64,000 nucleotides of DNA from Octopus vulgaris (taxonomy: Eukaryota): contig OX597818.1 of the NCBI GenBank assembly GCA_951406725.2, positions 59,830,001 to 59,894,000 of the forward strand, in the 5' to 3' direction. How positions within the stretch are numbered: the first letter of the stretch is position 1; each line of letters starts with the position of its first letter. The translations under genes were made by a program, and so were the position numbers. Positions 9,861 through 63,551 of this stretch are shown here, in pieces. The notes below the pieces were generated by a model, which saw only the letters and a list, made by a program, of their open reading frames with translations, ran no database searches and was not told the origin of the DNA.

Positions 9861-9955
<95 letters not shown>

Positions 9956-10171: not shown

Positions 10172-10263
<92 letters not shown>

Positions 10264-10358: not shown

Positions 10359-10412
<54 letters not shown>

Positions 10413-10515: not shown

Positions 10516-11475
10516 CCAATTTGTATACATGTGTGTGTGTGTGTGCGTGTGTGTGTGTGCGTGTGTGTGTGTCTGTCAGTCTAATATTAATTGATATTTT
10601 CATCAAATGCCTTTTACAAAATTTCACCAATTATTTCTAGCTACTTGCATTTCATTCCATAATTAATAAATTTCACTCTCACTATGAACTTCTCCAAGTG
10701 CATTATCTTAGTCTAAACTTTGTAGTATCGAAATTTCAAAAAAGGTTTTCTAATCAGAGTAGCATAGTAATTTTTTAGTATACTAATGTCAAATGGTATT
10801 TAAAAAGCTCAAACAGAAAAAAAGAAACGCTAAGAATTTAAAAGTCGCCGAAAGGGAAACAACTTCATTTATCATACTTAAAATTCATTCCCAACATTGG
10901 ATATTTAAAAATTAATATTTGTAGGCGATGTAACTGGCGGGTTCTGATTGCAAGTTCCACAGCGTCGACTTTGCTTTTCATCCTTTCGGGATCGATAAAT
11001 CAAGTACCATTTAAACACTGGTGTCGATGTATTCGACTTACACCCTCTCCCGAAATTGCTGGCCTTGTACCCAAATTTGAAACCAATATTTGTAGGCTGA
11101 TGAAGCAGTGAGGTGGTAGATCATGTTCATATTCCGGCGTGGTTAATTTTGCCTTTTGTTCTTTCGGAGTCAGTTAATTTAATACCAGTTGTGTATTGGG
11201 AACAATGTAATCGATTTGTCCCCTCCCCCAATATTGCTGGCCTTGTTCCAAAATTACAATCAATATTGTAGGCTGATGTCTTGAAGGTAGTTGTAATTAT
11301 TTCCAGTTATTAATGGCGAAGGCTTCCTTATTCCAAAATTCAGCTGGAAATAGAAATAATATAAGGTAATATGAAAGAGCAAAGAGTAACAAAGAACTTG
11401 GTGGAAATGAATTTGATTTTACGATGAATGATCAAATTAATGCTATATTTGAGAGAAGTATAAAAAGATTATCTC

Positions 11476-11895
11476 TGCAGTTGTTCTAGATAGGATTCTT
11501 CTTTTGTGAATAATAACTGTAAAACTAAAAATGTGATATATAGATGTAAAATTACTGCTGTTGGAAATGAATAGCTTTAAATCGGTGCAACTGTACTAAT
11601 TTTCAAAATGAGTTTCGCTAATCATTTAAGTTAATATAGAGATAAAAATTAAAGATTCCAAAGAAGTCTAAGTAAATTAATTTGATGTATTAAAAACAGA
11701 AACAAAGATTATACTATCGACTGGGAATTAATTAGTAGTGCAAAAGCATACAGACCGGGAACTAATAAATGTGACTTGTGCATAGAAGAATTTTACCAGA
11801 GTTTTACATCTAAGGAAAAGATAATAAATTCTACAGAGAAGCAAGCTCTGAGATGCTTGCATATGAGGAAATTTACCTTTGCTCAATATAAATGA
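11476..11895 (+). pseudogene. Penelope-like element GIY-YIG endonuclease relic (Naiad-like Cys pattern); copy at 36150-36569
   Basis: Hand translation in one frame with several stops gives CSC...NNCKTKNVIYRCKIT...*IGAT..FKMSFANH...LSKLI*...IDWELI..AKAYRPGTNKCDLCIEE...IN..E....CLHMRKF. This has VIY/YIG, CxxC and CxH motifs. It is absent from the ORF track because of the stops. Confidence 0.85.
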
Positions 11896-12160
11896 GTAAT
11901 AAACATTTAATCAACAAAATGTTTTTCAATAAATGACTATAAGTGATTATGCATTCAAAACGTGAATTGAAGATTTTTCGTGTCTAAATTAACGAACACC
12001 TCCACTACGCAGAGGGGGTAAACGAAAAACTTTAAGCAGTTATCTCAAAGGATATCAAAGAGAAGCCCCGAAAAAAAGGGCAGCGATATTATAGCAGGGT
12101 TCCAATTGCAACGGCTACTAATCGATGCGGTATAGACATGTGTAGGTCTATTTAATGCTG

Positions 12161-12191
<31 letters not shown>

Positions 12192-14225: not shown

Positions 14226-14250
14226 GCGGGACTTTTCATATATATATATA

Positions 14251-14549
14251 ATTTAAAAGTAAGATAAAATCTTTATAAGAAGTTATCAAGTAGGTAGCGT
14301 GAAAAACCTCATAAGAGAAAAATCCACCAATTTTTTCACTGAAATATATTTATTTATATTACATAGAGGGCATTACTTTAAGAGTCGCTAGGAGGGACTC
14401 TTAAAGTCAAAAACTACCAAAATAAATAAATACGTCATACCGAATGCACCTCTCGAAGCAAGTCATTTATGTTTATTTATTTTGGTAGTTTTGACTTGAA
14501 GATTCCCTCCTTGCGTGTGACATTTATGTATAATAATGCCCTTTATATA
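14251..14549 (-). mobile_element. Decayed fold-back element with one-sided tail between (TA)n tracts (copy at ~38922-39219)
   Basis: Arm ~14361-14430 (gagggcatta...ggagggactc...gtcaaaaactaccaaaataaataaa) is an imperfect inverse of ~14482-14549. About 110 bp is unpaired on the left. Confidence 0.7.
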
Positions 14550-14609
<60 letters not shown>

Positions 14610-14659
14610 AAGAATTGAAATATAACGTTATGCTACTTCGTCAAAATTTCTGGTCCAGA

Positions 14660-14986
14660 TAATGCAATAATCTAGCGTTCAAAGGCCCACAGCTCTTCAA
14701 TGCCCTGTCAGAAAATGTAAGAAATCTGCACAAGGTGGAAATAGAAGTCTCCAAAAAGGAGCTAGACATCCTCCTCTCCACAATATTGGATTAACCCACA
14801 GCGCTACATGAGGTGCAGATGAGTGCAACGTAATCAAACTCACTTATTCACGCAATGGGGCAACAGTTGGTACAGAGGCGCATTCAGGAGTGGCGATGTG
14901 AAACACCCCAGACTGAGGAAATCAAAAGAACCACGGTGGTGCTCCAGTATGACTGCAACAGCATGGTTGAAGCGAGTAAAGGAGTA
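14660..14986 (+). mobile_element. Older CR1-like LINE 3' fragment (copy at ~39325-39650)
   Basis: Translates to AFKGPQLFNALSENVRNLH...ELDILLS...EVQM...SNSLIH, homologous to the LINE C-terminus. It ends in ggtggtgctccagtatgactgca. Confidence 0.8.
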
Positions 14987-15085
14987 TGTAAAATATATAA
15001 TATTGTAAACATAACCAGAAAGGCTTTGTAAATTATGGAGAGGAAACTACTATGGAAAACATATAGTATAATAATAACTGTATAC

Positions 15086-15138
<53 letters not shown>

Positions 15139-15589
15139 TGTATGTATGTATGCATATACGTATGAATGTGTGTGTGTCTATGTATGTTTGTGTGTCTTTG
15201 GGTTTGTCCCACGCTCACCGTTTGAAGATCGATGATGGTTTGTTTACGGCCTTGTAGCTTAGTGATTCGGCATAAGAGATGGTAGAATGAGTGCCAGACT
15301 TGAGATAACTAAGTACAGGGGGCAATTTTTCCGGATAAAATCCTTCAAGGCAGTGCCCCAGCATGGCCGCAGTCCAATGAATGAAATAAATCCTCTTTGA
15401 TCTTCTGGTCTCCCGACATCGACACAATTGTTACATAGGAGTAAGCCTGGTTGTGTGGGAAAGAAGCTTGCTTCCCAACAACATGGTTCCGTGTTCAGTT
15501 CCATTGTGTGGTACCTTGGGCAAGTGTCTTCTACTGTAGTATTGGGCCGACCAGTGCCTTGTGAGTGGATTTGGAATATATATACCTTT

Positions 15590-16125
<536 letters not shown>

Positions 16126-16388
16126 ATATATCAGTACACAAATGGTGTTTTAAGCTTGCGATAGTTGTTTCGGTTAAATTTTATTGAATTATTCATAGAT
16201 TACATCGTAGCATAGAATCCAACATCTTCAGGCCAAATTTTAAACGTGTATCGAGCAGGGGAGATAATTCCTTGATCGTAACGAATCCAGCCATCATTGT
16301 TGCTTGTTTTCGATTAAATCATTATCTCATTTATATTCTTATACATACCTATTTCTTTACTACCCACAAGGGGCTAAACAGAGAGGAG

Positions 16389-16488
16389 NNNNNNNNNNNN
16401 NNNNNNNNNNNNNNNNNNNNNNNNNNNNNNNNNNNNNNNNNNNNNNNNNNNNNNNNNNNNNNNNNNNNNNNNNNNNNNNNNNNNNNNN
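16389..16488. other. Assembly gap (100 N)
   Basis: Run of n, flanked on both sides by SINE B sequence. Confidence 0.99.
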
Positions 16489-24423: not shown

Positions 24424-41091
<16,668 letters not shown>

Positions 41092-43505: not shown

Positions 43506-43879
43506 ATTATGAAAATACAATACAATAATATAATTTATAATTCTATCGTTACGGTGCTTATTTCGCTGGAGAATAATCTTTTTCACTGCTGCGTTCAATT
43601 TCTCCTATGTAGGCAGCTATCATGTTTCTGCACCATCCCTCACTACATCTTAAGCTATACACTACATATCTTATCTTACATTTAACCCGAGGGTGCATCC
43701 TACATACAACACAATTGTACTCCCTGCAGGGGAACTTATGAAAGGGATAGGGATTGCAGATCGGGGATTTTAAAGGGGCACCAGGCCTCTCCACTACTTT
43801 AATTCGTAGATCAGTCTTACTATATGTTTCTTTCTGAAGAGATGTGCTAGTTCGCCGCCAAGGGTAGCATCAACCAGCA

Positions 43880-44790
43880 TGACACTGGTGTTTTTTGTTG
43901 CCATACCAAGTGTTGGCCTTATTTATCTAATTACTGCTCCTTTCCGCGCTGTTCCAGGATTTACACCTGTACAGCGGGCAAATACCCTTAGCATCACTCT
44001 TTATGGTGGATTTGTACTTAATCCTGACTCCTTTGTACAGTCTAATCCCGTCCCTTTGGTTCTAGCCAGAGAACTACATGCGGTGGATGAAGTGTGGTGC
44101 ATATCTTTCCAATTCCATTGGGTTGCAGATGCGAGACACATTCCTCATCACTCTAACCAAGTCAGCTTTCAGAATGTTGAACTTGGCAAAGTCTGCAATC
44201 GCTGCGTATTGTGAACAAGGTACTTAGATGCCATGGGTTTGGCATAATGAGAATGAAGGATCTGAAACTTACCGTTCTTCGTTTCTAGCCAGAGTTCAGT
44301 GTCTAAAGCGGGTAATGTTTATTTAGGGTGCTTACTAAGGACGTCTATCGCTATTTCTGTACTCTGGTGGATGAAGTTAGCTATTTGCTGGATGCTCTCC
44401 ATAATGTTAGCTTCTTGATCTTCAACATCGTGTTTTCGAGATGTCCTGGCTATTATGTTGATATCATCCACGAAACGTGAGTACATGATTAGGTTTATGG
44501 AGTTCTCTACTAATTTCTCTTCAAGTCTTTTATCCAATCATACCATAAATAGGTTAGCCACATCGCCAGCAATATTGACACCGATGGCTGCACCTTCCTC
44601 TTGGACGTATGTTTTGTTGTTAAACTCAAATATATGGCACTTGAGTGTGGTCTTAATACTCTCACCCACCGCATGGGTGACGATTGTTTTAACCTGTTCA
44701 TTATATTCGGGGGTCCTTATAGCTCTGATCCAACCGTTCCATCTCTCTTTGGGGGTTCTTCTATAGCGGTGAGATCTAGCTTTTATGGAT
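43880..44790 (-). pseudogene. Penelope-like reverse transcriptase relic
   Basis: Minus strand reads HIFEFNNKTYVQEEGAAIGVNIAGDVANLFMV*LDK...MYSRFVDDINII...TLPALDTELW...HYAKPMASK. These are PLE-type RT motifs (FEF...Y.Q..G.A.G, Y.RFVDD, LP.LD, Y.KP). Confidence 0.88.
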
Positions 44791-44990
44791 CTAGTGGGGC
44801 ATAAACAAATAAGGCCATGTTTATCTAAGTACTCATAAAATCTTTTCTACGTATAAATAACGTCAGCATTAAATTACAAAGAAAACATAGTTTAGAAAAT
44901 TAACAATAAGCAAATGCCATTGTGTTTTCGTAGAATAAAGTACATTGCTATGATATCTGATGCAATTAGAGTGTTAGAAATATAATCCAC

Positions 44991-46803: not shown

Positions 46804-48330
46804 ATGATTGAGATCTTCCGTTTGACGGTGGAGAATGCTGTACAAATGCTTGCGGGCTTTGTGATTTTGCGGCTGTTTTATCTCAGAAAATGCAATCACA
46901 GAAAGACATTGAACTGCAATCAGTTTACTGTTTATACCTTTCTGTCTTTTCTTAAAAACTCTCGCTAATGAATCCTGGCAGACTAATTTATTCATTAAGT
47001 GCACTACTGGAAATATTTTCTCAGGCACCTCTTCAAAGTAATTCAGTGCATATATAATAAGATACATAATGTCTCAGCAACATTTGGTATTTAGTACTAA
47101 AGTTTCAGCTCTTATATTGATGGACGGTAGCTCTTTGTCATATCTATAAAAATGTAATATTCTTACCGCTAGAGAATACTAAACGAAACTAGTTATATTG
47201 AAACTGTTGCAAAACTTCGTTTGTTACCATAACAATTTAAAGTTCTGTGGCTTTCACAGTTATTTCTTTATATTGATGTATAGTAAATCGCGCCTCATGC
47301 CCTAGGACTCAGTGATCTAGTTATCCGCTTTCCATTGGATACAAGTGACCGGAACAACAAGAGGACGTCTGGCCATCGCAGGGTTACGCATTTATAGCCG
47401 AATGGACTGAAATAACGTGTAATGAAGTTTCTTGCTACAAAAAACAACGCACCGCCCGGTGCGCGAATCGAAACCACGACCTTACGCACGTGAGAGCATC
47501 AGCATGAACATAAGTCCACGCATCTTCATATATCGAAGTATGGACGTCTGAAGAAGAGACAAGAGGTATATATATGATATGAAGGAATATTGTTCCAAAC
47601 TTACTGGGAAAATTCAATTTAGAAATACTAAATCAAATTTCGAAATTTCACATCATTATATTTTTATCCTATATTTAATCTTTCTATAATATGTAATTTT
47701 CTAGATGGTGTAATTTAATTTTTCATTATTGAATTGATAAAAGGTGCTTTTTTCTAATTTACATATATATATATATATACACTCACATATTCACATACAC
47801 ACCCTCACACACACATACACATATGCACCAAACAGTGGCACCCCACTTTATTTATAGGTGCAAGTGTGGATAGGCGCAAGCGGGGGTAGGCATATGGGTG
47901 GCTTTGTGGTAAGAAGTTTGCTTTCCAGCCACATGGTTCTGGGTTCAGTCCTACTGCGTGGCATCTTGGGCAGATTGATTACATGAAGTTCAATAGAAAA
48001 CCGTCTGCGTAAACCGAACATCCCAACCACAAACATTTGCTATACGGATATTTCAAAGACGAATTTCACAGTGCAAAACCGACAACATTAGATGATTTGA
48101 GGAATAGTATTAAAAAAAAAAAATGCTTATAAATATCATTCCATTACTTTGGCGTTATCAGCGAAGCGTGAATAAGAACAGGTGTTGTTCTAAAAAAATT
48201 TAAAGCGTTTCTCTAGATTTTATTAACTTTTGAAAATGAAGTGTATCTTAATAAATATTGAATTTCATTCAACATATGTGAATACAAATTCTACTGTTAC
48301 CTGTATGTATGTAAACATATATATCTATAT

Positions 48331-48373
<43 letters not shown>

Positions 48374-48383
<10 letters not shown>

Positions 48384-48699
48384 TAAATTAGAGATAAAAC
48401 CACTATTAGGCAAATCATACAATGAAAAACTTAAGCCAATACATAAGATTAATTAATGTATATTATTTAAATATATATCAAAATTATTAAAAAATATATA
48501 TTTAAATAATATAAATTAATTAATCTTATGTATTAGCTTAAGTTTTTCATTGTATGATTTGCCTAATAGTGGTTTTATCTCTAATTTAATATAATATAAT
48601 ATTTTACTATAAAATTTGATTCAATCCTAAATCTGATTTTTCCCTTAAGTTCTGATTTATTCCCTGTAAGTTCTGATTTATTCCCTAATATTTTATTAT

Positions 48700-48700
<1 letters not shown>
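48374..48700 (+). mobile_element. Fold-back element in (TA)n: 105-bp arms, 15-bp spacer, ~100-bp tail
   Basis: 48374-48478 is the inverse of 48494-48598. The tail 48599-48700 contains a duplicated taagttctgatttattccct. Confidence 0.85.
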
Positions 48701-48746
<46 letters not shown>

Positions 48747-49414
48747 TGTAAGTATTATGTATGTATGCTTGCATATATATAATGTTTACGCAGGATGGGC
48801 CCAACGACTAGAAAACTGAACAAAATTATCACGTGTGTTTATGAACAAAAATACTCCATGTTGTTTCTTTGGATTCATTTGCTCCCCGCTTAGGATTTAT
48901 GCTATTGGGAATGCATGGATACACAGTGAGAAACCTGCTGGAAACCTCCAAGGACGGAAGCATTTTATCTTGAAATGCATGCTGTACATATTAAAAATAT
49001 GTATATATAATTTGAACATATTCGCTATCATATTTCCAATATACTTACTTTGAATACACCAAATCTACACTTATAATCAGACGTTCAAATATCCTACTTT
49101 CTAAAATTCAAATTCATTATTTTATCCTAATTAGAAAACTTTCGTTTCATTGCTCTTTTCGTATTTGATTCCGAATTAGTTTCAAATGCTTAATGTTTTT
49201 TTTTTTTATATCTGCAAAGCATCATTAATGAGAGTATAGTTTCTTTTCATTCCCCTTTCAGATAAATTCTCTATCGTTTTTGGAAATTCATGTTTGACTC
49301 ACTTTCTCATTTTGTTTAAATCTGAAAAGTTTGCCACACTGAACTGTTAAATATACTAAATAATGAGGTTAAAAGAAATAACAAGTTAGGCACGCTAACC
49401 AAGTTGAAACGTAT

Positions 49415-49790
49415 ATTTTTCTTCTACTCTATGCACAAGGACAGAAATTTTGAGGTGGGGGGGACCTGTCGATTAGATCGACACCAGTATTCAACTGGTA
49501 CATAATTTATCGACCCAAAAAGGATGAAAGGTAAAGACGACCACGACGAAATTTGAACTCAGAACGTTAAGACAGACGAAATACCTACAGAGAGGACAAA
49601 TAAGGACAGACAAAGGGATTAAGTCGAGTATATCGACCCCAGTGCGAAACTGGTACTTACTTTATCGACCCCGAAAGGATGAAAGGCAAAATCGACCTCG
49701 GCGGAATTTGAACTCAGAACATAACGGCAGACGTAATACGGCTACGCATTTCGCCCGGCGTGCTAACGTTTCTCCCATCTCGCCGCCTTC
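49415..49790 (-). mobile_element. SINE family B
   Basis: Family B head and units on the minus strand. Confidence 0.85.
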
Positions 49791-49850
49791 CTCCACACAA
49801 TTTCCAATAACAACTAAAAGAACACCAACATCTAAAGAAGAATGAGAACA

Positions 49851-50248
49851 TCTTTTAATATAAAAGTGAAGTTGTGTGCCTGTCTCCTACGATTTAGATT
49901 CCTAACTACTCCCACATTTTGCAGTGCAGTGTAACCAAAACCAGGTATCTTATAGTCGTGATTCATATCGAGCCCGTCTGGGTATTAGCGCGCGTCTATG
50001 ATGAGTCTACGATTTCAAAAAAGTTTACCATCATTTTTTTCCATTTTAATGCATTTTTTCGCTATTATATAAGGGAAGTAACTCTCTAAAAATGTCTACG
50101 ATGAGTCAACGATTTTTTAAAAATTTTACCATCATTTTTTTTTTCCATTTTTAATGCATTTTTTTGCTATTTTTTGGCTATAACTCTCTTAAAATGCTTT
50201 ATAGTTATTTCCCTTACAAATCCGAGCAACGCCGGGCGATACTGCTAG
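49851..50248 (+). mobile_element. Non-autonomous Helitron
   Basis: A|TC 5' end, subterminal GC hairpin ccgagcaacgccggg, CTAG|T 3' end, and no TSD. Confidence 0.82.
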
Positions 50249-50356
50249 TTTACAAATAAAAACAGGAAGCAATTATTCTTATTTGCAATATTATTTCATT
50301 ATTTAACAAACATATAGATTGACAGATCGGTTGAGCAAGAAACAGATGACCGTAGA

Positions 50357-50387
<31 letters not shown>

Positions 50388-50629
50388 CGCTAGATTCAGT
50401 TTAAATCTTGCCTCACTGTTCGTCATCTGAAAATCGAAAAATTAAATATGAATAACAATAATATTAAACAGTTGACGAATCAGAGAGCTGGCAGAATCGT
50501 TAGGATGCCGGGCAAATGACAGACTTTATGTTCTGAGTTCAAATTCCGCCCATGATGTATATATATATATACACATATATATTTATATGTATATATATAT
50601 AAATGTATATATGTATATGTATAGACATG

Positions 50630-50661
<32 letters not shown>

Positions 50662-50970
50662 CACATATGTATATATATATATACATATATATGTAGACAT
50701 ATATATATATACATACATATATACTTATACATATATATACATACATATACATATCTATATGTGTGTATATGTACAGCAATAAGAAAATGGAGGGAATCAA
50801 GAGGTGGTATTCATCAACTTTTTGACATTATATTATATCTATTTTTCTAAAGCAACAATTATAGCAGTATACATACATTTATATCATTATGTATTATATA
50901 ATATATAAAAATATAAAAATACCAGTAATTATTAAAATATATAACGTAGAGCATAGGAGGTAGAATCGTA

Positions 50971-51092
50971 TCTTACAGCTCTTTCCGCCAAGGGGTCATA
51001 GTACCCCACTTTACTTCCCTCCCTTCAGTGAACTGAAGTATTTTGTAGATAAGACTAAGGTACTTGGGTGTGCCTCTAGGCTTCGTCTGAGA
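50971..51092 (-). ncRNA. Decayed type I hammerhead ribozyme with long stem II
   Basis: Minus strand reads tct-CAGACGA-agcc...ggcg-GAAAG-agct-GTA-aga. There are two substitutions from CUGANGA/GAAAC. Confidence 0.5.
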
Positions 51093-51279
51093 GTTTAGAA
51101 AGTTCATAAGGTTAAGTTATAAATATAAATACATATATAAACACATTTATATATACATACATATACATTGATATACATAAATACATATCTATACATTTAT
51201 ATGTACATGTATATACATACAAATGAATCAATTATTATTAACATTAAGTGTATTTTATTATTCCTATTAGATAAAGTAC

Positions 51280-51326
<47 letters not shown>

Positions 51327-51404
51327 TGTGTGTGTGTGACCGCGTGTGTATCGTTGGCGATTGTTTCCTCCGTCTTCCCTTCCTTGGATCTTTCCTTTTC
51401 CTAT

Positions 51405-51440
51405 GTTTCTGACGAAGAGCTCCGCTCGAAACGTTAAAAC
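51405..51440 (+). ncRNA. Minimal type I hammerhead ribozyme (PLE type)
   Basis: gttt-CTGACGA-a-gagc-tcc-gctc-GAAA-cgt-TA-aaac. Stem I is gttt/aaac, stem II is gagc/gctc, and stem III is the vestigial palindrome AACGTT. Confidence 0.72.
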
Positions 51441-51553
51441 CTCCGTCTTTCTTTCCTTTCCTGAGTGTCCAATAACACTACGTTTGTTCTACGTCCTCGC
51501 GTTGTTGTTTTCTCTTTGTGTTTTCATGTTTAGATTATCTATCTATCTATCTT

Positions 51554-51591
<38 letters not shown>

Positions 51592-51612
51592 AATCTATCT
51601 ATTCTATCTATA

Positions 51613-51647
<35 letters not shown>

Positions 51648-51830
51648 TATCTATCTATCTCTCTCTCTCTATATATATATATATATTGAAGAACGTAGGA
51701 TCGAAACGTAAAAGACTTTCTGATCTCCCCGAGCGTTAATCTACTACACCTGTTTTTGCTTACACACCTGTTTTCATCTTTTGTTTTTTGTTTGTCTTTT
51801 TTTTTTGTAAATTCCAACGATATATAGATT

Positions 51831-52699
51831 GGATATTTTTCTATTTGGCTACCAGCGTCAATTTTCTCTTCGAATTGAGTTCATATTGAGAGTAATGATA
51901 CACTTTTATAGGCTAATTATTGACGTGAAAGTAATTTTCGCTATAAATCAAAAAATACAGAGTTATTAGTAATTAAAGTTTGAACATTTTGGTAATTTTA
52001 GCCACTCGTAAGCCACAAACACATTCATGGCTGTTTCGATAGTAAGAAGCAGAACATGAGAACTCTTTTGTCTCTTAACATGACTGTTGCCATAGTAACA
52101 AGCGACTCCAAGCAGTCTTTGAAAAGTCTTTTATCTGCGAGAAGCACGTGTTGACACATTTGGCTATGTGTTCTTTGATCTTTGTAATTGTGGCTGCAAG
52201 CTGAAGTAAGTTCGCTTCTACTATGGAAACATTGAAATTTGAGGAGGATATTTTAAAAATTAAAACCAAAAGCTAATGTTTGTTTTTTAAGCATATTTAA
52301 ATTGTAATTAAACATGTTTAAATTCTTTTTGCCATTGAGCATTGAGGTGGTTTGTGAGGTGTGCTAAAACTAACAGCTAAATAACATTTATTTACATGAA
52401 AAGAAAAATTACCGAAGACATAAAACGTGCTGTTTACAAATATTGACAACACGTGATATTTTCAGTTTCTTGACGACAAAATGTGCAATCACACACAAAA
52501 TGGCAGCTTCCAAATCCTTTTTTTTTTTTTGACTGAGTGAAAATGATCAAACTTTAAACCTCTATAAATGTTCAAAAACTTTTTTCTGGAGAAAATGAAC
52601 CCCTGTAATTCGGTTTGGGACAATGTATTGTTGTGCCAAATCTTAGAATTTTCGGTAAACTCTAAATTTTGGAGCCGCTGGCAGCCAAACAGGAAAGAT

Positions 52700-52701
<2 letters not shown>
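51831..52701. mobile_element. Non-autonomous DNA transposon with ~27-bp imperfect TIRs
   Basis: ggatatttttctatttggctaccagcg matches the reverse complement of the right end, ggatctttcctgtttggctgccagcg. Confidence 0.65.
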
Positions 52702-52750
<49 letters not shown>

Positions 52751-52773
52751 TTTATTTTAAGCAGCAGAAAATT

Positions 52774-52829
52774 CAACAAAATCTGTTACTCTGAGTTTCT
52801 CGTTGCCGTTCATCAGACAGATTTTGCTA
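52774..52829 (-). ncRNA. Type I hammerhead ribozyme (mirror copy, fully paired stem I)
   Basis: Minus strand reads tagcaaaatctgt-CTGATGA-acggcaacga-GAAAC-tcaga-GTA-acagattttgttg. Confidence 0.85.
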
Positions 52830-52869
52830 GAATGGAACCGATATATCAATTGATATATCGGTTCCATTC

Positions 52870-52925
52870 TAGCAAAAACTGTCTGATGAACGGCAACGAG
52901 AAACTCAGAGTAACAGATTTTGTTG
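52870..52925 (+). ncRNA. Type I hammerhead ribozyme
   Basis: tagcaaaaactgt-CTGATGA-a-cg-gcaa-cg-a-GAAAC-tcaga-GTA-acagattttgttg. It has a long stem I, a GNRA-capped stem II and a near-palindromic stem III. The predicted cut is after 52912. Confidence 0.85.
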
Positions 52926-53041
52926 AATTTTCTGCTGCTTAAAATAAAGCATATTACTCTACCACTGGTATTTGAGTACTCTTTTTTCCACCTTGTTTCA
53001 CATTTATGTGTTTACTCCGGTATATATATATATATATATAT

Positions 53042-53240
53042 ATAGTTATTGCCATACTTATATGGCAGTCTTATAGATATAAGACTAAAGCTGTCGCTGA
53101 TTGGCTCCAAGAGGCCACTTGGAGCTAATCAGCGACAGCTTTAGTCTTATATTTATAAGACTGCCATATAAGTATGGCGATAACTATTAATTTCCAGTAA
53201 CGCTGCCGTAATCTCCTTTAGAGAGACTTAATAATTTTAA

Positions 53241-53246
<6 letters not shown>
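53042..53246 (+). mobile_element. Fold-back element: 146-bp palindrome plus 59-bp tail in (TA)n
   Basis: Symmetric about ggcc at 53113-53116 with 4 mismatches. The tail is 53188-53246. Confidence 0.88.
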
Positions 53247-53287
<41 letters not shown>

Positions 53288-53438
53288 TTAATCATATCGA
53301 AGGGAATTGGTATGATTATATTTTTTCATTTCGTTCCTGTCGAATTTTATCCCTAATTTTGTGGTTATAGAACCTAGCTGTTCTTTCTAGCGTGTTGAAT
53401 CCCACGAGTGGATTCCTTATGTGATTAAATGTACACTG

Positions 53439-53476
<38 letters not shown>

Positions 53477-54294
53477 GACGGGCATCTTTTGGTTTCCGTC
53501 AACGAAATCAACTCACGAAGATTTGGCTGGCACGAAGCTATAGTAGAAGAAACTTGTCGAAGGTGTCACACAGTGGGACTGAGCCCGGAGCCATGTGGTA
53601 GAGAAGCAAGCTTCTTACCACATAGCCACGCCTATATACCATTCAAAAGCTCTACTAAACACACTATCAGTTTCCTTAAGTAAAAACCGTCCAACTGACC
53701 ACAATATTTATTTCCTTAACCAGGTCAGCAACCGGGAGTTTTCACATGCTCAGACACGCATCGGACTCCATCATATATGTTTACATTGTACACGTATGCA
53801 TATCATTATCAATGTACACGCTCACGTGTACAAATAATTTAAACACGGAACTAGCATCCATAATAGACAGCAATTGATTTAGCCGTATGGGTCTTTTGGA
53901 CGCATTTTAAATTATGACTTAAACAGGTTTTCTTAATATATTAACATAGTTACGTAACAAGACACCTAACAACAAACCTAGTTTTGTTTCAAAGTGAGAC
54001 ACGTTTCGATAGTCACTTACTGCACGCAAACTCTGAACAAAATTTGTAATTTTTATTCAGTATTTCAGGCAGTTAACTAAAGATATAAAACCTGAAGGAT
54101 TCGGTTTGTGTTCTAATTGACAAATATTAGTCAATATAACCAAAGACATCGTGCAAGTTCCAAGCGATTAGGGTGGAAAATTTAAGCTCATTTTAACAGC
54201 AAAAATCGGATTAATACTCTACGTAATATTTCATTCAGGTAACAATTTAACAAGCTAAACATTATTAAAATAAAAAGATCAAAACGAAACAAAG

Positions 54295-54372
<78 letters not shown>

Positions 54373-54448
54373 ATTTGCATAGTTGTGTGTGTATGCACAT
54401 ACATATGTGTGTTTGTATATATGCATTGCTATGTATATATACACATGG

Positions 54449-54490
<42 letters not shown>

Positions 54491-54684
54491 GTATATATAT
54501 ATGCGTGGATGTGCATATGAGTGTGTGTGTGTGTGTGATTAGAAGTGAAGTACAGATATTGAATATTGAGAAAAGAGGAGGTCACCAGGCTGTTTCTTTG
54601 GTATAATTAAAGACGGCCCTTTGGTGTGTCTTAATGTTTTTTATAACCCAGGCTTCTTTGTCTGCTCTCCCCACCACACACCCA

Positions 54685-54736
<52 letters not shown>

Positions 54737-54738
<2 letters not shown>

Positions 54739-55060
54739 AGTACTCCGTCTGTTACGACGACGAGGGGCCCAGCTGACACGATCAATGGAATAGCCTGCTC
54801 GTGAAATTAACGTGCAAGGGACTGAGAAATCCACAGACACATGCACCCGTAACGTAGTTCTCAGGGAGATTCAGCGTGACACAGATGTGACAAGGCTGGC
54901 CCTTTTAAATACAGGTACAACACATTTTTGTTGGCTGAGAGAACTGGAGCATCGTGAAATAGAGTGTCTTGCTCAAGGACACAACGTGTCGCCGGGAATC
55001 GAACTCACGACCTTACAATCGTGAGCCGAATGCCCTAACCACTAAGCCACGCGCCTTCAC
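54737..55060 (-). mobile_element. SINE family C variant
   Basis: Minus-strand head gaaggcgcgtggcttagtggttaggg...gttcgattccc with the family C 3' end. Confidence 0.85.
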
Positions 55061-55456
55061 AGTATTATATGTTACTCTTTTACTTTTCCAGTCATTTGAT
55101 AGAGTAACGCTTTTTCTGTCTGCAACGTCCTCAGCCTCACGACGTCTGCATTTCACCAGACCGTAATCTATATGAAATATTGTGTCGATGCTGCTACAGA
55201 TAAAATATATTTCAAATCATATTAAATACGAAAGAAGCTCAACGAATGTTGGGGAATATTTTAACACCGAGATAAAGCCATTTTTATCGTGGTTTTCTTT
55301 TCAGAATGTTCGTTATCGCCTTGTGTTTTAATACGTAACTTCATAGTTAAACTATTTTGTCGATTTAGAAGTCAGATATTAATTTAATGAAGTACATGGC
55401 AACACTATATCTAACATTATGCTGGAAGCCAGAGACGTACTACTGAAATAGTCTCC

Positions 55457-55875
55457 TTACTCTTTTACTCTTTTACTTGTTTCAGTCATTTGACTGCGGC
55501 CATGCTGGAGCACCGCCTTTAGTCGAGCAACTCGACCCCGGGACTTATTCTTTTTTTGTAAGCCCAGTACTTATTCTATCGGTCTCTTTTGCCGAACCGC
55601 TAAGTGACGGGGACGTAAACACACCAGCATCGGCTGTCAAGCAATGCTAGGGGGACAAACACAGACACACAAACATATACACACACATACATATATATAT
55701 ATAAATATATACGACAGGCTTCTTTCAGTTTCCGTCTACCAAATCCACTCACAAGGCTTTGGTCGGCCCGAGGCTATAGCAGAAGACACTTGCCCAAGGT
55801 ACCACGCAGTGGGACTGAACCCGGAACCATGTGGTTGGTAAGCAAGCTACTTACCACACAGCCACTCCTGCGCCT
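55457..55875 (-). mobile_element. SINE family A, full length, near consensus
   Basis: Complete head, body and (GAGTAAAA)n tail. Confidence 0.94.
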
Positions 55876-56248
55876 ATTGATTTTTGTGAAAGAACAGGAA
55901 ACCAAACTAAAAGTAATCGAAAATATAAACAATGGGAATGAACCGCTGATGGCGCTTTCGGATTTTGTAAAGAGCAGAGTTTAGTAGTATAAAATCTTTT
56001 ATTAATTGATGCAATTCAAAGTGATGGATAAGTGTAATACAATTTCCAAACAGACACGTTGATCATTTTTTTTTTACCTTCAAGCGCTTTGCTGTGTTGA
56101 GCATAATTTTATTTGTTCCTGATAAGCACTGTACTAAAGTAGCATGTGGATGCTTGTGCGCGGGTGTGTGAGTGTCTGTGTTTGCGACGGCATGTGTGTG
56201 TGAGTTTTGGGATTTGTGTACATACGTGTATACATACATACATGTATA

Positions 56249-56430
56249 TAAGGCGGTGAGCTGGCGGAAACGTTAGCACGCCCGGCGAAATGCGTAGCTG
56301 TATTTCGTCTGCCGCTACGTTCTGAGTTCAAATTCCGCCGAGGTCGACTTTGCCTTTCATCCTTTCGGGGGTCGATTAAGTAAGTACCAGTTACGCACTG
56401 GGGACTTAATCCGTTTGTCTGTCCTTGTTT
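56249..56430 (+). mobile_element. SINE family B
   Basis: Family B head. It is flanked by a ~33-bp direct repeat, tacatacgtgtatacatacatacatgtatata. Confidence 0.88.
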
Positions 56431-56465
56431 GTACATACGTGTATACATACATACATGTATATATA

Positions 56466-56770
56466 TCACGTGATCACGTGACCGACCAGTCCATCAGATG
56501 TAGTTACACATCGCTGGTCACAATGCGTTCGCATTGTTTTAGCCTTCGAATGACGCCACCCCGCTGGCTAAGCGAGCAGGCCAACAGAAGAAAGAGTGGG
56601 AGAAAGAGTGGTGAAAGAGTACAGCAGGGATCACTACCCCCTGCCGGAGCCTCGTGGAGGTCTTAGGTGTTTTAGCTCAATAAACATTCACAACGCCTGG
56701 TCTGGGAATCGAAACCGCGATCCTACGACTGCGAGTCCGCTGCCAAAACCACCAGGCCATTGCGCCTCCA
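56466..56770 (-). mobile_element. SINE with family C head and a different 3' end (…tcacgtgatcacgtga)
   Basis: ggaggcgcaatggcctggtgg head on the minus strand. The 3' half differs from the other family C copies. Confidence 0.82.
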
Positions 56771-56773
56771 AAC

Positions 56774-56857
<84 letters not shown>

Positions 56858-56877
56858 TAAAATATATATCTATATAT

Positions 56878-57282
56878 TCTTTTACTCTTTTATTTGTTTC
56901 AGTCGTTTGACTGTGACCATGCTGGAGCACCGCCTTTAGTCGAGCAAATCGACCCCAGGACATATTCTTTGTAAGCCTAGTACTTATTCTATCGGTCTCT
57001 TTTGCCAAACCGCTAAGTTACGAGGACGTAAACACACCAGCATCGGTTGTCAAGTGATGTTGGGGGCACAAACACAGACATACAAACACACACACACACA
57101 CACAGATATATACATATATACGACGGGCTTCTTTCATTTTCCGTCTGTCATCCACTCACAAGGCTTTGGTCGACCCGAGGCTATAGTAGGAGACACTTGC
57201 CCAGGGTGTCCTGCAGTGGGACTGAACCCGGAACCATTTTGTTGGTTAGCAAGCTACATACCACACAGCCACTCCTGCGCCT
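56878..57282 (-). mobile_element. SINE family A
   Basis: Family A motifs on the minus strand. Confidence 0.9.
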
Positions 57283-57798
57283 ATATAGTATACAAAAAAT
57301 AAACATCAGCATTCTTATATGTGTATGCATAATCACACACGTACACATACATATGTACTTCCACACACAAACACACACATATCTATATTATTTCTCTACG
57401 TATTTCGGTATTATACTCATATGGTTTTCTCTCACGTGTTCACTTCTACTAATCTACTTCATTTTCAAAACTATTTTTGTCAAAATAAATTAAATTATTT
57501 CACTTTTAATATAAGTCTCACTATAATATTAATCCGATCGCCTATTGTTGTTGTCTTATAGTGATTATAATTTCAACGGCTACCACCTCTGAAGCTGTAT
57601 ATCGCTGATAATATGTGCAAAATGGCTTCATTCAAAACGGTTTGGTATTTTCCTTCTTTTTTTTTACCAGTCCAGAATATACTGTATTTAAATAACAAAT
57701 TAGCAATTAGGTGCGTGAAACCATTTGAAGTCGATATATTATCTTAAACATAATTAATCACTTAATTCTTAATCCAGACCCAAAAATAGACAACTGTA

Positions 57799-57844
<46 letters not shown>

Positions 57845-57944
57845 TTGTATGTGTGTGCTTTTGTGTATTTGTGTGTGTTTGTGTTTGAAGGCGTGGCTGT
57901 GTCGCGTGGCTGTGTTTGTGTTTGCAGGCGTGGCTGTGTACAGC

Positions 57945-58097
57945 CATGAAACGATCGTAGTGTTTTACTCTTTATCTTTTATTAAACTTTTAATACTTTT
58001 GATATATATTTAAAATAATATAAATTAATTAATTTTATGTATTTGCTTATGTTTTTCATTGTTTGATTTGCCTAATAGTGGTTTTATCTCTAAATTA

Positions 58098-58106
<9 letters not shown>
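57945..58106 (+). mobile_element. Single arm of the 48374 fold-back family, starting with the 3' half of a hammerhead
   Basis: 57990-58106 matches the arm of the 48374 element. It begins with GAAAC-gatc-GTA (57948-57959). Confidence 0.72.
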
Positions 58107-58144
<38 letters not shown>

Positions 58145-58182
58145 TGATCAAAATAAAATAAAAACATGATGCGAAGGATTCA

Positions 58183-58260
58183 GCGGTACATATGTTTCGG
58201 GCCTTTATTAGACAGATTTATAACAATGCATAATGTATGTCTGTGGCCTTCTTCAGCCGC
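58183..58260 (-). ncRNA. Type I hammerhead ribozyme (mirror copy)
   Basis: Exact reverse complement of 62029-62106. Confidence 0.88.
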
Positions 58261-59989
58261 GCACAACAGCTTCCACAAGGACATGTGTTACATCAAAAAT
58301 TCTTGGTTGGGGATGCAAATCCTCTCATTCGCGAACGACATAATGCGGCAGCAGCATAGAATTGAAGCGTCCATCTCTTTCTTCTCTCAATGTAGAATGA
58401 GGAAAATTGGATGTTGAGGTAATGTAAATAAATAAATACATATATAGACGTGAAGATGGAGGGGCGAGAATTCGGGACGAGGGATAAAAAATGTATAAAA
58501 GGTGTAAGTATAGAAAAATATAAAAATGTAGAGCGTAAAGATATAAAGAGTTATAAGGAGATGTAAAGGGGGTATAAAGAATATAAAGAAATATTAAGAA
58601 ATATAAATAAATGTAAAGGCATAAGGTTATAAAGTAAAAATAGAAATAGAAATAAAAGTAAAAAAACATGATAAAAACATGATAAAAATGTAAAAGAATG
58701 TAAAGATAACGGATGTATAGAGGTTACGGACCAAGCATGGTGGTCAGGAGATTGATAAAATTTAGTTGTAGAATTGTCAGTAAATCAACAGTTTCGTCTG
58801 GGGACCTAATGTGTTGTAAATCAGAGCTGATGAGCATTTAATCTGGTTCCTTGAATTAAATGGACTTCTAGTACATACATATCATCATGGATACATACAC
58901 CCACATACACGCGTACATATACGCCTCCAAGCCTATAAGCATACACACGCACTCGCGTGTAAACATGTACATAAACACACACGCACCCACACGCACGCGC
59001 GTACGCATACATACATACAACAGAATATCCGCATGTATACACGGACACTATACGCGTACACACTCACATGTACATACGCGCGCCCATCCCTACATACACA
59101 CACGTATATGCCCACGCCTCTAGGTCTAGATATAAGATATTAAAGGATGTATATAAGAACGTATGTAAAAAACGTATGTAAAAAATCACGTACTCATGTC
59201 TATACGTGCACGCACACACGGCTGTGTGTCCGTATGTGCGTGCACATATACACTCATATACACACACAGAGACACACGCGCATATGGGTATAGCTATAAG
59301 ATATCGAAATATGTATGTACATATATGCGCGTGCATATGTATGTATGCGTATACACACGTACGCGGACGCTCGTATAGTCAAAAAGTGGATCCATAGGTA
59401 AGTAAATAAACATATATAGAGGTGTAAAGCGATAAGTTAGGGGTAAGAATGAGGGTAAGGGTAAAAATTAGAAATAAAAAATACAGTATAAAATAAGAAA
59501 TACAATGTAATAGTTAGAAATGAAATATAAGAATTATAAAAATTATAAGAGTTAAGGTAAGGGATGAAAATAAAAATGAGAATAAATGGAAGTAGAATAA
59601 AAGTAAAAATAAAAATAAATGGAAGTAGGATAAAAGTAAAAATAAAAGTAAAAATAAGAATAAAATAAAATAAGATAAAAATATAATTTGGTAAAGTTTA
59701 ACATGAGATGAAGGTGGTTGAAAGTTAGAGGTGTGTGTTAAACGTAGGGGCGGGCGGGGGGAACTGAAAATTGGAAGGGTGGGAAGTGGAGTTTGGCGGT
59801 GTGCGTTCAACATCCGAGTTAGAAATGTGAAAGGGTATAGATATAGGGAATTAAAGAGACTATATAGGGAGGATATGGGTGTAGGAGAAGAAATATTTAG
59901 GGAAAAGAAGTCATATATGGGAGACAAAATTTGTATATATAGGAGGAAAATGCAGGGAACCGTATATGCACATACACACACCCACACGC

Positions 59990-60029
<40 letters not shown>

Positions 60030-62028
60030 GTACACATATGTGCACATACACATACATACACACACACATACGCATATACACGCACATATAGGAAAGCGGG
60101 ATGTGTTGGAGCCGACAGGTTGCACCGGGTGGGAGGAAATTGCATTGGGGAGTTGGTATAAGACCTAAGCTTTGTACACATCCCGCTTTCCTATATGTGC
60201 GTGTATATGCGTATGATTGTGTGTATGTATGTGTATGTGCACATATGTGTACGTATGTGTACATATATATATATATATACATGTGCGTGTGTGTGTGTGT
60301 GTGTGTGGGTGTGCGTATGTGCATATACGGTTCCCTGCATTTTCCTCCTATATATACAAATTTTGTCTCCCATATATGACTTCTTTTCCCTAAATATTTC
60401 TTCTCCTACACCCATATCCTCCCTATATAGTCTCTTTAATTCCCTATATCTATACCCTTTCACATTTCTAACTCGGATGTTGAACGCACACCGCCAAACT
60501 CCACTTCCCACCCTTCCAATTTTCAGTTCCCCCGCCCGCCCCTACGTTTAACACACACCTCTAACTTTCAACCACCTTCATCTCATGTTAAACTTTACCA
60601 AATTATATTTTTATCTTATTTTATTTTATTCTTATTTTTACTTTTATTTTTACTTTTATCCTACTTCCATTTATTTTTATTTTTACTTTTATTCTACTTC
60701 CATTTATTCTCATTTTTATTTTCATCCCTTACCTTAACTCTTATAATTTTTATAATTCTTATATTTCATTTCTAACTATTACATTGTATTTCTTATTTTA
60801 TACTGTATTTTTTATTTCTAATTTTTACCCTTACCCTCATTCTTACCCCTAACTTATCGCTTTACACCTCTATATATGTTTATTTACTTACCTATGGATC
60901 CACTTTTTGACTATACGAGCGTCCGCGTACGTGTGTATACGCATACATACATATGCACGCGCATATATGTACATACATATTTCGATATCTTATAGCTATA
61001 CCCATATGCGCGTGTGTCTCTGTGTGTGTATATGAGTGTATATGTGCACGCACATACGGACACACAGCCGTGTGTGCGTGCACGTATAGACATGAGTACG
61101 TGATTTTTTACATACGTTTTTTACATACGTTCTTATATACATCCTTTAATATCTTATATCTAGACCTAGAGGCGTGGGCATATACGTGTGTGTATGTAGG
61201 GATGGGCGCGCGTATGTACATGTGAGTGTGTACGCGTATAGTGTCCGTGTATACATGCGGATATTCTGTTGTATGTATGTATGCGTACGCGCGTGCGTGT
61301 GGGTGCGTGTGTGTTTATGTACATGTTTACACGCGAGTGCGTGTGTATGCTTATAGGCTTGGAGGCGTATATGTACGCGTGTATGTGGGTGTATGTATCC
61401 ATGATGATATGTATGTACTAGAAGTCCATTTAATTCAAGGAACCAGATTAAATGCTCATCAGCTCTGATTTACAACACATTAGGTCCCCAGACGAAACTG
61501 TTGATTTACTGACAATTCTACAACTAAATTTTATCAATCTCCTGACCACCATGCTTGGTCCGTAACCTCTATACATCCGTTATCTTTACATTCTTTTACA
61601 TTTTTATCATGTTTTTATCATGTTTTTTTACTTTTATTTCTATTTCTATTTTTACTTTATAACCTTATGCCTTTACATTTATTTATATTTCTTAATATTT
61701 CTTTATATTCTTTATACCCCCTTTACATCTCCTTATAACTCTTTATATCTTTACGCTCTACATTTTTATATTTTTCTATACTTACACCTTTTATACATTT
61801 TTTATCCCTCGTCCCGAATTCTCGCCCCTCCATCTTCACGTCTATATATGTATTTATTTATTTACATTACCTCAACATCCAATTTTCCTCATTCTACATT
61901 GAGAGAAGAAAGAGATGGACGCTTCAATTCTATGCTGCTGCCGCATTATGTCGTTCGCGAATGAGAGGATTTGCATCCCCAACCAAGAATTTTTGATGTA
62001 ACACATGTCCTTGTGGAAGCTGTTGTGC

Positions 62029-62106
62029 GCGGCTGAAGAAGGCCACAGACATACATTATGCATTGTTATAAATCTGTCTAATAAAGGCCCGAAACATATG
62101 TACCGC
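62029..62106 (+). ncRNA. Type I hammerhead ribozyme
   Basis: gcgg-CTGAAGA-a-ggcc-[acaga...tctgt...]-ggcc-c-GAAAC-atat-GTA-ccgc. Stem I is gcgg/ccgc, stem II is ggcc/ggcc, and stem III is the palindrome ACATATGT. The predicted cut is after 62102. Confidence 0.88.
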
Positions 62107-62213
62107 TGAATCCTTCGCATCATGTTTTTATTTTATTTTGATCAATTTACTCCACCACCTACACCACCAAACGGTATACACAGGTGCTTATAATTATCAA
62201 GTACTCACCCCGA

Positions 62214-62267
<54 letters not shown>

Positions 62268-62346
62268 GTATTTATATACATATATGTATATATATATGTA
62301 AATATATATATGTATGTATATATGCATGTATGTATGGACGTATGTA

Positions 62347-63551
62347 TTAGGTTGTTTAACATGAAATGTCGTATTTGAAAGGTAACAATAAAATGTCTCA
62401 GAAGTGTTAGAGAACTGATTTATTTAATCAAAGTATGATCCATTTATGACGTTTATGACGTTTACCCAACGTTTCTCTATGTCATATATTCCATCTTTAA
62501 AAAAATAAATTCATCTTTTACTGTGATAAACTGTCCGAATGCTTCAATTACCTCTTCTCTATTTAAGATTGTTTTATTGGTTACGAAAAGCTCAAAATGC
62601 TTAAATAAGTGATGATCAGTAGGAGAGATACCAGGGGAATAGGAAGGATGTTGCAAATTGTCATCATTCAGGCTTTACAACTTTTGGAGCGTAGCTTGAG
62701 GAGTGTGAGAACGTGCATTGTCGTGGAGTAAAATTGGGCCATCTCTATTCTTCAGTCTGGGTTGCTTCTTTTTCAAATTCTTATGCATACAATCAATTTC
62801 CTGACAATACGATATTACTGTTACCATTTTTCGTTCTTGTAAAAATGAATAATGAATAACTCTCTTCGCAGACCACAATACAGTGACCACTAACTTTTTA
62901 AGGTGCAATGGTACGTTTTAGGTGGTATTTAGGTGACTCTCCTGCATCTAATCACTGTCCTGTTCTTCTGCTGTTGTCAAAGAGTATCCATTTCTCATCA
63001 CATGTAATGATTCTATGCAAAAAGGGTTCTTTTTCCAGTCGAGAAATCAATAAGAAACACTTTTTTTTTAAATCTCGTTCAGCTGGTGTAGAACAAACCT
63101 ATCCGTTTTCTTGTCTTGTTTGGAGTTCTGATGAAAATTTAGGAACCTTTGTTTTCGGATTTTGTTCAACCAAATTTATGTATCCATCATGCCGAATAAC
63201 TGATTTTGGCCTACCCCTTGGTTTATTTTCAAGGCTATCATCTCCTGAACGAGAGCTTTCGAAACATCTCTGAACAGTTCTGATGTCAACAAAACCATTA
63301 CCAAAGGCCCGCTTGATATTCCGTAGAACTTCTTCGACATAGTGACCCAGTTTGTACTCATACGAGAAAATCACTCAACATAGTTTTGTTATTATCATTT
63401 TCATGGGGTCTGTGGGTACGAATATTGCATACCAATATTGTTGGGGAAAGAAAATGACTCAAGATTAAAGGTAAGGTATATATAACTCAGTTTTTAAATG
63501 ACTGAAATAAAAAGTAATTAAAAATGCAACATTTCATGTGAAACAACCTAA
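62347..63551 (-). mobile_element. Near full-length mariner transposon with decayed transposase
   Basis: TIRs ttaggttgtttaacatgaaatgt / ttaggttgtttcacatgaaatgt, TA on the left flank. HTH region ...LENKPRGRPK, PILLHDNARSH and HPSYSP motifs, with frameshifts. Confidence 0.93.

What the first reader, a model, noticed from the sequence alone, without database searches (positions are those of the whole stretch)
48374..62216. A shared 'palindrome + one-sided tail in (TA)n' architecture across at least five unrelated-looking sequences
Seen: (TA)n - inverted arm - short or no spacer - arm - 59-110 bp unpaired tail - (TA)n occurs at 14251-14549, 48374-48700, 52750-53020, 53042-53246 and 58140-62216. 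Arm lengths range from ~70 bp to ~2 kb and I see no sequence similarity between families. Three families are tied to hammerheads. PLE RT (43880-44790) and GIY-YIG (11476-11895) relics lie in the same window. Inference: a TA-targeting PLE system routinely builds hairpin insertions. First-strand cDNA would start at the tail, truncate, fold back and self-prime, and the copy-back would stop before the tail. That would make it a genome-wide generator of inverted repeats.
Basis: partly seen in the sequence, partly recalled or inferred. Interest (0 to 1): 0.8.

Follow-up and report, generated by a model that had tools for sequence, protein, structure and literature searches.

The report
Head-to-head Penelope stubs in TA repeats
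These palindromes with a one-sided tail are real, and are likely truncated, head-to-head insertions of Penelope-like jumping genes that land in TA repeats, an already described layout; their junctions fit best with one RNA likely being copied twice, from both sides of the cut, rather than one copy folding back.

Summary
The layout is real at all five places. Four palindromes are clean (228-6870 bits), one is decayed (104); 30 shuffles reach at most 59. Families share no DNA similarity. Outward-pointing hammerheads are intact in two families and half-decayed in a third.

This is the published anatomy of Penelope-like elements (PLEs): inverted 5'-truncated copy, tail at one end, (TA)n target (PMC8557442, PMC3846280). 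The 52750 end matches a published Hydra-clade end at 27 of 28 hammerhead positions outside helix II (by eye). The 58140 family is multi-copy and 3'-biased in public runs.

The proposed mechanism (tail-first cDNA folds back) is weakened. In both elements with a testable spacer, it belongs to the tail-less arm, and the joint has at most 1 nt of pairing. Arm lengths are coupled and the 2-kb arms share alleles that are rare in the runs laid. I favour one RNA copied twice from two start sites, then joined (about 0.5). Fold-back followed by central deletion remains (about 0.3).

No autonomous partner was found. The genome-wide claim could not be tested, as no genome is held. Verdict: new members of a known kind, with useful mechanistic junctions.

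The parts
58140..60106 (-). Element D, tail-less inverted arm (1967 nt), starts directly in (TA)n
60107..60175 (-). Element D spacer (69 nt): extra family sequence that continues the tail-less arm
   Evidence: high depth; loose end behind 60176 in 2 of 4 runs, 2 contigs each; GC skew +0.44, left arm +0.21, right arm -0.19
60176..62149 (+). Element D, tailed arm (1974 nt), low-complexity, no credible ORF seen
62029..62106 (+). Type I hammerhead in D (GCGG/CCGC helix I, CUGAAGA, GAAA, palindromic helix III, GUA site after 62102); mirrored in the left arm
62150..62216 (+). Element D one-sided tail (67 nt), followed by (TA)n 62217-62254
52750..52949 (.). Element C1 palindrome, 100-nt arms, no spacer
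52879..52916 (+). Hydra-type hammerhead in C1 (mirrored at about 52783-52820, minus strand)
   Evidence: compared by eye with File S2 of PMC8557442
52950..53020 (+). C1 tail (71 nt) with a CTC...GAG hairpin like that in published Hydra ends
   Evidence: by eye
53045..53184 (.). Element C2 palindrome, 70-nt arms, no hammerhead
53185..53246 (+). C2 tail (62 nt)
48379..48602 (.). Element B palindrome; 48479-48492 is a 14-nt overhang of the tail-less arm
48603..48702 (+). B tail (about 100 nt, with a 21-nt tandem repeat)
57915..58102 (+). Second, longer, tail-less B-family copy with a half-intact hammerhead (GUA site after 57959); same outer end as B; shares its (TA)n with D
14250..14550 (.). Element A, decayed palindrome with its tail on the left (about 14250-14360)
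43561..44846 (-). Broken Neptune-like PLE RT + GIY-YIG relic (context; no DNA link to A-D shown)
11476..11895 (+). Broken Hydra-like GIY-YIG endonuclease relic (context; no DNA link to A-D shown)

Best explanation
Each element is likely a single insertion of a Penelope-like retroelement's 3' end into a (TA)n repeat, in which one RNA was likely copied twice, once from each nicked strand and from two start sites a tail-length apart, and the two copies were likely joined head to head. Steps: (1) an endonuclease would nick both strands of the self-complementary (TA)n target (shown in vitro for a lizard PLE on AT-rich DNA, PMC11167929; inferred here). (2) One strand would prime at the tail end and the other at the internal start, which leaves the tail on one side only (two start sites shown in that paper; fixed tail-less end shown here). 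(3) Both cDNAs would stop at or near the same 5' end of the RNA, the internal-start copy running slightly ahead (inferred from coupled arm lengths and spacer side). (4) The two 3' ends would be joined by a template jump with 0-1 nt of homology, or by annealing at a short palindrome (inferred). The products are protein-less; a read-through transcript would fold into a long hairpin that buries the hammerheads.
For: PLE identity: outward-pointing type I hammerheads 37-143 nt upstream of the arm end; C1 matches Hydra-2_Amil at 27 of 28 positions outside helix II/loop 2 (by eye); 3'-biased depth of family D in 3 large runs (bins 61900-62115 at 549-916k, 502-966k, 162-311k against 7-145k, 22-229k, 10-98k in unmasked bins 60316-61899). 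Fixed tail-less end: B and its second copy end at the same base; in run X2 a 22-contig loose-end consensus runs from the arm end into TATATA. Spacer on the tail-less arm in 2 of 2 testable elements with at most 1 nt of pairing. One template: D's arms have 0 substitutions over 1836 nt yet carry, at 4 of the 40 variant rows shown (75 in all), a letter absent from at least 98% of depth in each of the three large runs. In D the two copies are nearly equal in total length (2036 and 2041 nt). In vitro PLE data: both strands cut and extended, two start sites bounding the tail, predicted dimer (PMC11167929).
Against: Only two spacers could be tested. A perfect palindrome that later lost an asymmetric central piece would look the same (known instability of long palindromes; my own knowledge). 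C1 and C2 have spacer-less palindromic centres that fit fold-back equally well. Shared rare alleles are also expected from copy-back or from later arm-to-arm conversion, and the runs may be of other species than the window. D's inner arms do differ, in and beside microsatellites. Read laying listed no strand-change joints (9 joints listed, none changing strand; 24 of 392 loose ends shown), and in X1 the 9-contig consensus at the arm end continues with the first tail letters, not TA. No autonomous partner was found. C2 has no hammerhead and A's is doubtful, so their PLE origin rests on shape alone.
Confidence: 0.5

Rival explanations
1. One reading: one cDNA starts at the tail, truncates, folds back and copies itself up to a fixed point before the tail (set by an endonuclease cut); spacers in B and D arose later by asymmetric central deletion.
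For: Arm lengths are coupled in all five elements; D's arms share alleles rare in the runs laid; C1 and C2 have palindromic, spacer-less centres; PMC8557442 attributes the tail to endonuclease-mediated resolution.
Against: In B and D the spacer continues the tail-less arm, so the tailed strand does not contain its template; the joint has at most 1 nt of pairing. Needs a second event in both cases. The in vitro tail boundaries are RT start sites.
Confidence: 0.3
2. Self-priming on an antisense RNA (Arkhipova et al. 2013): the antisense transcript folds back at its 3' end, primes DNA synthesis through the tail, and loses its own 5' tail part on integration.
For: Predicts head-to-head orientation and a loop on the tail-less arm, as seen in B and D; proposed for rotifer PLE palindromes.
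Against: Needs a priming stem, absent in B and D; does not explain precise (TA)n at both ends; sense-RNA target priming is what was shown in vitro.
Confidence: 0.1
3. MITE or foldback DNA transposons with TA target duplications; tails are unrelated flanking DNA.
For: Short palindromes in TA; C2 has no hammerhead and A's is doubtful.
Against: Ends are asymmetric; the centre differs between B copies; family D depth rises several-fold toward one end and its tail is covered in all 4 runs; C1 hammerhead and tail resemble published Hydra PLE ends.
Confidence: 0.04
4. Assembly artefact (fold-back chimeric reads).
For: The window holds a probable false duplication around a gap; D's outer arms are identical; no listed contig spans the stretch laid.
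Against: Arms stop at element ends with different flanks on each side; the same layout recurs at five sizes, with arm mismatches and one decayed case.
Confidence: 0.03

Closest known systems
Endonuclease-bearing PLE insertion unit with inverted 5'-truncated copy and one-sided tail (Craig et al. 2021, PMC8557442 Fig. 2 legend; Arkhipova et al. 2013, PMC3846280; passages and named sections read)
   Same: Head-to-head inverted copy, tail at one end only, palindromic joints, (TA)n target that hides target-site duplications.
   Different: Here both copies are truncated and carry no ORF, so the whole insertion is one palindrome; tails are 62-110 nt against the 30-40 nt stated in the main text.
Hydra clade PLEs (PMC8557442 section 11; Files S1, S2, S7 read in part), e.g. 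Hydra-2_Amil, Hydra-2_Ajap, Penelope-13_HM, Hydra-1_Obim
   Same: (TA)n insertion; hammerhead often with an extra base on both sides of helix II; C1 matches Hydra-2_Amil at 27 of 28 positions outside helix II/loop 2 and has a similar CTC...GAG hairpin in a long 3' extension; Penelope-13_HM is listed with an inverted 5' copy and a hammerhead on both strands.
   Different: No family here matched the octopus consensus Hydra-1_Obim 3' end by eye, and none of the short motifs searched hit the stored supplement; no ORF is attached; D has a 2-kb non-coding body.
Minimal hammerheads of metazoan PLEs (Cervera and De la Pena 2014, PMC4209133; section 5 and passages read)
   Same: Palindromic helix III, dimer-type; the paper already notes pairs 100-700 bp apart on opposite strands, ascribed to truncated PLEs.
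   Different: Not reported for cephalopods in the passages I saw; here the pair is buried in a perfect hairpin.
Poseidon element of Anolis studied in vitro (Frangieh et al. 2024, PMC11167929; parts 1-2 of 4 read)
   Same: Tail bounded by two fixed sites, AT-rich target, both strands cut and extended, predicted dimer.
   Different: The parts read do not explain how the inverted copy forms; the double-copy step is my inference.

Membership tests
EN+ Penelope-like element insertion | Type I hammerhead near the 3' end, in sense orientation toward the tail | tested here: met
   Intact in D and C1, half-intact in B's second copy; absent in C2, doubtful in A. Cleavage not tested.
EN+ Penelope-like element insertion | Inverted 5'-truncated copy with tail at one end only | tested here: met
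   5 of 5 elements
EN+ Penelope-like element insertion | Multi-copy family with variable 5' truncation and fixed 3' ends | tested here: met
   Family D only, from contig depth and loose ends; B from two copies; A, C1, C2 not tested
EN+ Penelope-like element insertion | Contiguity with an RT + GIY-YIG ORF in some copy | tested here: inconclusive
   No ORF in the elements; relic 3' ends do not match; no outside locus found; no genome held
Hydra clade | Hydra-type hammerhead and (TA)n target | tested here: met
   C1 27 of 28 positions against Hydra-2_Amil; D has the same helix II geometry (by eye)
Hydra clade | ORF motifs (DKT, CxCX5C linker, no CCHH) | not testable with these tools
   The elements carry no ORF. 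The separate relic at 11476-11895 has CxxC and CxH, and 5 of the 6 homologues fetched show a CxCX5C linker (the sixth starts downstream of it).
MITE / foldback DNA transposon | Symmetric termini and a fixed centre | tested here: not met
   One-sided tails in 5 of 5; B copies differ at the centre
Non-LTR retrozyme | Head-to-tail tandem units, each with a hammerhead (bioRxiv 10.64898/2026.07.22.740005, part 1 and passages read) | tested here: not met
   Units are head to head and single

The most novel reading that the evidence does not exclude
PLE reverse transcriptase works as a staggered pair that copies one RNA twice from both nicked strands of (TA)n, so the tail and the inverted copy are two results of one step; in octopus several PLE clades do this at high copy number and supply a main source of the long perfect hairpins behind its extreme A-to-I hyper-editing.
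Probability: 0.2. Interest if true: 0.7.

Novelty: new member of a known kind. Interest (0 to 1): 0.33.

Why it matters
How PLEs make their inverted copies is stated as open in PMC8557442. ORF-less, single-event palindromes are clean substrates for that question: spacer side, joint homology and allele sharing between arms separate fold-back from double priming, and can be counted in any good assembly. Separately, PMC5625713 reports unusually high dsRNA potential and hyper-editing in octopus without a repeat annotation; if these palindromes are as dense elsewhere as here (five in 64 kb), they are candidates for that source. Neither point is shown here; the layout itself is ordinary for PLEs.

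Tried and rejected
No genome is held, so the genome-wide scan could not be run. Rfam: 0 hits at gathering score; the E-value scan of 48000-62400 gave 199 hits, 150 listed, mostly miRNA-model matches to hairpins and microsatellites, with one weak HH9 hammerhead hit in C2 (21.7 bits, E 0.19) that lacks GAAA and is rejected. Outside copies: 0 in metagenome contigs, viral contigs, prokaryote genomes, plasmids. Of 37 metagenome loci encoding relatives of the Neptune-like RT, none held a whole palindrome-plus-tail insertion; 1 ends in (TA)38 and 1 has an inverted hammerhead-bearing piece at its 5' contig edge. No RNA holder on record was listed; the one guessed-RNA run laid showed no excess of A>G or T>C places over the other runs (12 and 14 against 10-11 and 11-14), which says nothing on editing. 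A resemblance between a D loose end and B's second copy scored 27 against 25 and 24 elsewhere in the window and was dropped as chance. Tail motifs shared between window families were not significant. Single-strand folds of the D and C1 hammerheads were not more stable than shuffles (z 1.0 and 0.03), as expected for dimer-type motifs. The word-indexed search with the 69-aa relic found nothing; the full HMMER scan found 247. Literature searches listed no paper that describes these octopus families or a double-priming origin of PLE inversions, judged from listings; older subscription papers and Repbase are outside the library, and the PMC8557442 supplement is stored cut, so short-motif searches there can miss.
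Full report
Setting. The window is AT-rich animal DNA (36% GC), probably an octopus. This is inferred: the RT relic's only hit was an Octopus vulgaris protein at 59% identity, and my recognition of the local SINE-like repeats is from memory. No genome is held. Window 1-16388 is repeated at about 24424-41091 at 98-99% identity across a 100-N gap, probably an uncollapsed haplotype.

Observation. All five palindromes exist. I call them A (14250-14550), B (48379-48702), C1 (52750-53020), C2 (53045-53246) and D (58140-62216). They score 104, 345, 361, 228 and 6870 bits against at most 59 in 30 block shuffles. Each has (TA)n at both ends and a tail of 62-110 nt on one side. No pair of tails or arm+tail units is significantly alike (20 comparisons). 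D and C1 carry intact type I hammerhead cores pointing outward, with cleavage sites 47 and 37 nt before the arm end (one search printed 38 for C1 with the arm end set one base late). B is tied to a hammerhead through a second, longer, tail-less copy at 57915-58102, whose 3' half is intact and whose CUGANGA box is degenerate. C2 has none; A has only a doubtful remnant.

What they are. PMC8557442 (passages, section 11, part of the supplement) draws this layout for PLEs: an inverted 5'-truncated copy, a tail often at one end only, and (TA)n targets in Naiad and Hydra clades. It lists octopus Naiad and Hydra families with (TA)n preference. PMC3846280 (passages, section 11) describes palindromic joints and proposes self-priming. 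PMC4209133 (section 5, passages) notes hammerhead pairs on opposite strands 100-700 bp apart. C1 can be placed closely: outside helix II and its loop its hammerhead equals that of Hydra-2_Amil at 27 of 28 positions, and its tail holds a CTC...GAG hairpin like those at the ends of Hydra-2_Amil and Hydra-2_Ajap (compared by eye). So long tails are already visible in published Hydra consensus ends. D's hammerhead has the same geometry. The two relics belong to different clades. [quoted passage not shown] The one at 11476-11895 has CxxC and CxH, and its homologues have the CxCX5C linker, so it is Hydra-like. Neither relic's 3' end matches A-D.

Family D in public runs (4 of 24 listed runs laid, all contigs). 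3206, 4766, 1784 and 520 contigs mapped to 60100-62240. Summed depth is several-fold higher over 61900-62115 than upstream in the three large runs, as in 5'-truncated retroelements; depth is not copy number. Loose ends at the arm end run into TATATA in X2 (22 contigs, agreement 0.79) but into the first tail letters in X1 (9 contigs). In X3 and X14 two contigs each follow the spacer on the + strand to 60176 and then go on with other letters, so the real joint is spacer/tailed arm. The spacer's GC skew agrees. No strand-change joints were listed, and only 24 of 392 loose ends and 40 of 75 variant rows were shown, so variation of the centre across the genome was not observed for D.

Mechanism. 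Three facts constrain it. First, in B and D the spacer continues the tail-less arm, and the joint pairs by at most 1 nt. A tail-first cDNA cannot template that spacer from itself. Second, arm lengths are coupled: the inner ends lie within 0, 0, 14 and 69 nt of each other in C1, C2, B and D, which two independent truncations would rarely give for 2-kb arms. Third, D's arms have no substitution over 1836 nt while carrying letters that at least 98% of run depth lacks at 4 listed sites, which points to one template. One RNA copied twice from two start sites, one on each nicked strand of the self-complementary (TA)n, fits all three. It builds on PMC11167929 (parts 1-2 read), where both strands are cut and extended, two start sites bound the tail, and a dimer is predicted. 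The second pass and the joining step are inference. Against it: n is 2; a later asymmetric central deletion would mimic the spacer; C1 and C2 fit fold-back as well; arm conversion could erase differences (A's left arm shows such a template-switch patch); the runs may be other species. I give double copying 0.5, fold-back 0.3, antisense self-priming 0.1. PLE origin itself is about 0.9 for B, C1 and D, and lower for A and C2.

Consequence. A read-through transcript of C1 folds into one 100-bp hairpin (-175.5 kcal/mol, z -29) that buries both hammerheads, so they are likely inert here. PMC5625713 (passages) reports exceptional dsRNA potential and hyper-editing in octopus and left it out of the repeat analysis. 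A contribution of these palindromes is possible but untested; one search gives no evidence on it.

Earlier scan notes (unchecked) report the same layout in other genomes and file it as known. They agree with my reading but are not evidence.

Verdict. Observation confirmed; interpretation partly supported; new members of a known kind; interest 0.33.

Noticed in passing
window 1-16388 and about 24424-41091: 98-99% identical direct duplication around a 100-N gap at 16389-16488, probably an uncollapsed haplotype; it doubles element A and the Hydra-like relic.
   Followed up: partly
window 14367-14407: In A's left arm a stretch is replaced by the reverse complement of its neighbour, forming a small perfect hairpin: looks like quasi-palindrome template switching after insertion.
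   Followed up: partly
window 51400-51535 and 51677-51820: Two single-orientation PLE-type 3' stubs: one with an intact hammerhead core ending in a (TATC)n repeat, one degenerate ending in ATATATA. Not all PLE-type insertions here are palindromic.
   Followed up: no
window 60176-62030: D's 2-kb body is strand-skewed, microsatellite-rich and non-coding, yet covered along its length in all four runs laid: probably a non-autonomous family or a very long 3' UTR whose 5' part is unknown.
   Followed up: partly
window 58140-60175 and 60176-62216: The two halves of D have nearly equal total length (2036 and 2041 nt) because the spacer (69) about equals the tail (67); not seen in B, C1 or C2, so it may be chance.
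   Followed up: partly
window 52702-53286 and 57915-62254: Elements of different families sit side by side sharing one (TA)n run (C1 with C2; B's second copy with D), suggesting that each insertion leaves a target for the next.
   Followed up: no
window 12190-14237 (minus): A young 5'-truncated LINE with a long RT frame is also flanked by (TA)n on both sides and abuts A's tail.
   Followed up: no
window 61460-61500: A second, broken hammerhead-like remnant in D (GTC/GAC stem then GAAAC) next to a short local palindrome that contains an inverted CTGATGAG box.
   Followed up: no
L007:1-61 and L007:3126-3186; L002:2596-2671: A Neptune-like ORF from a metagenome has a minimal hammerhead in its 3' UTR and an inverted copy of it at its 5' contig edge; another ends in (TA)38.
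   Followed up: partly
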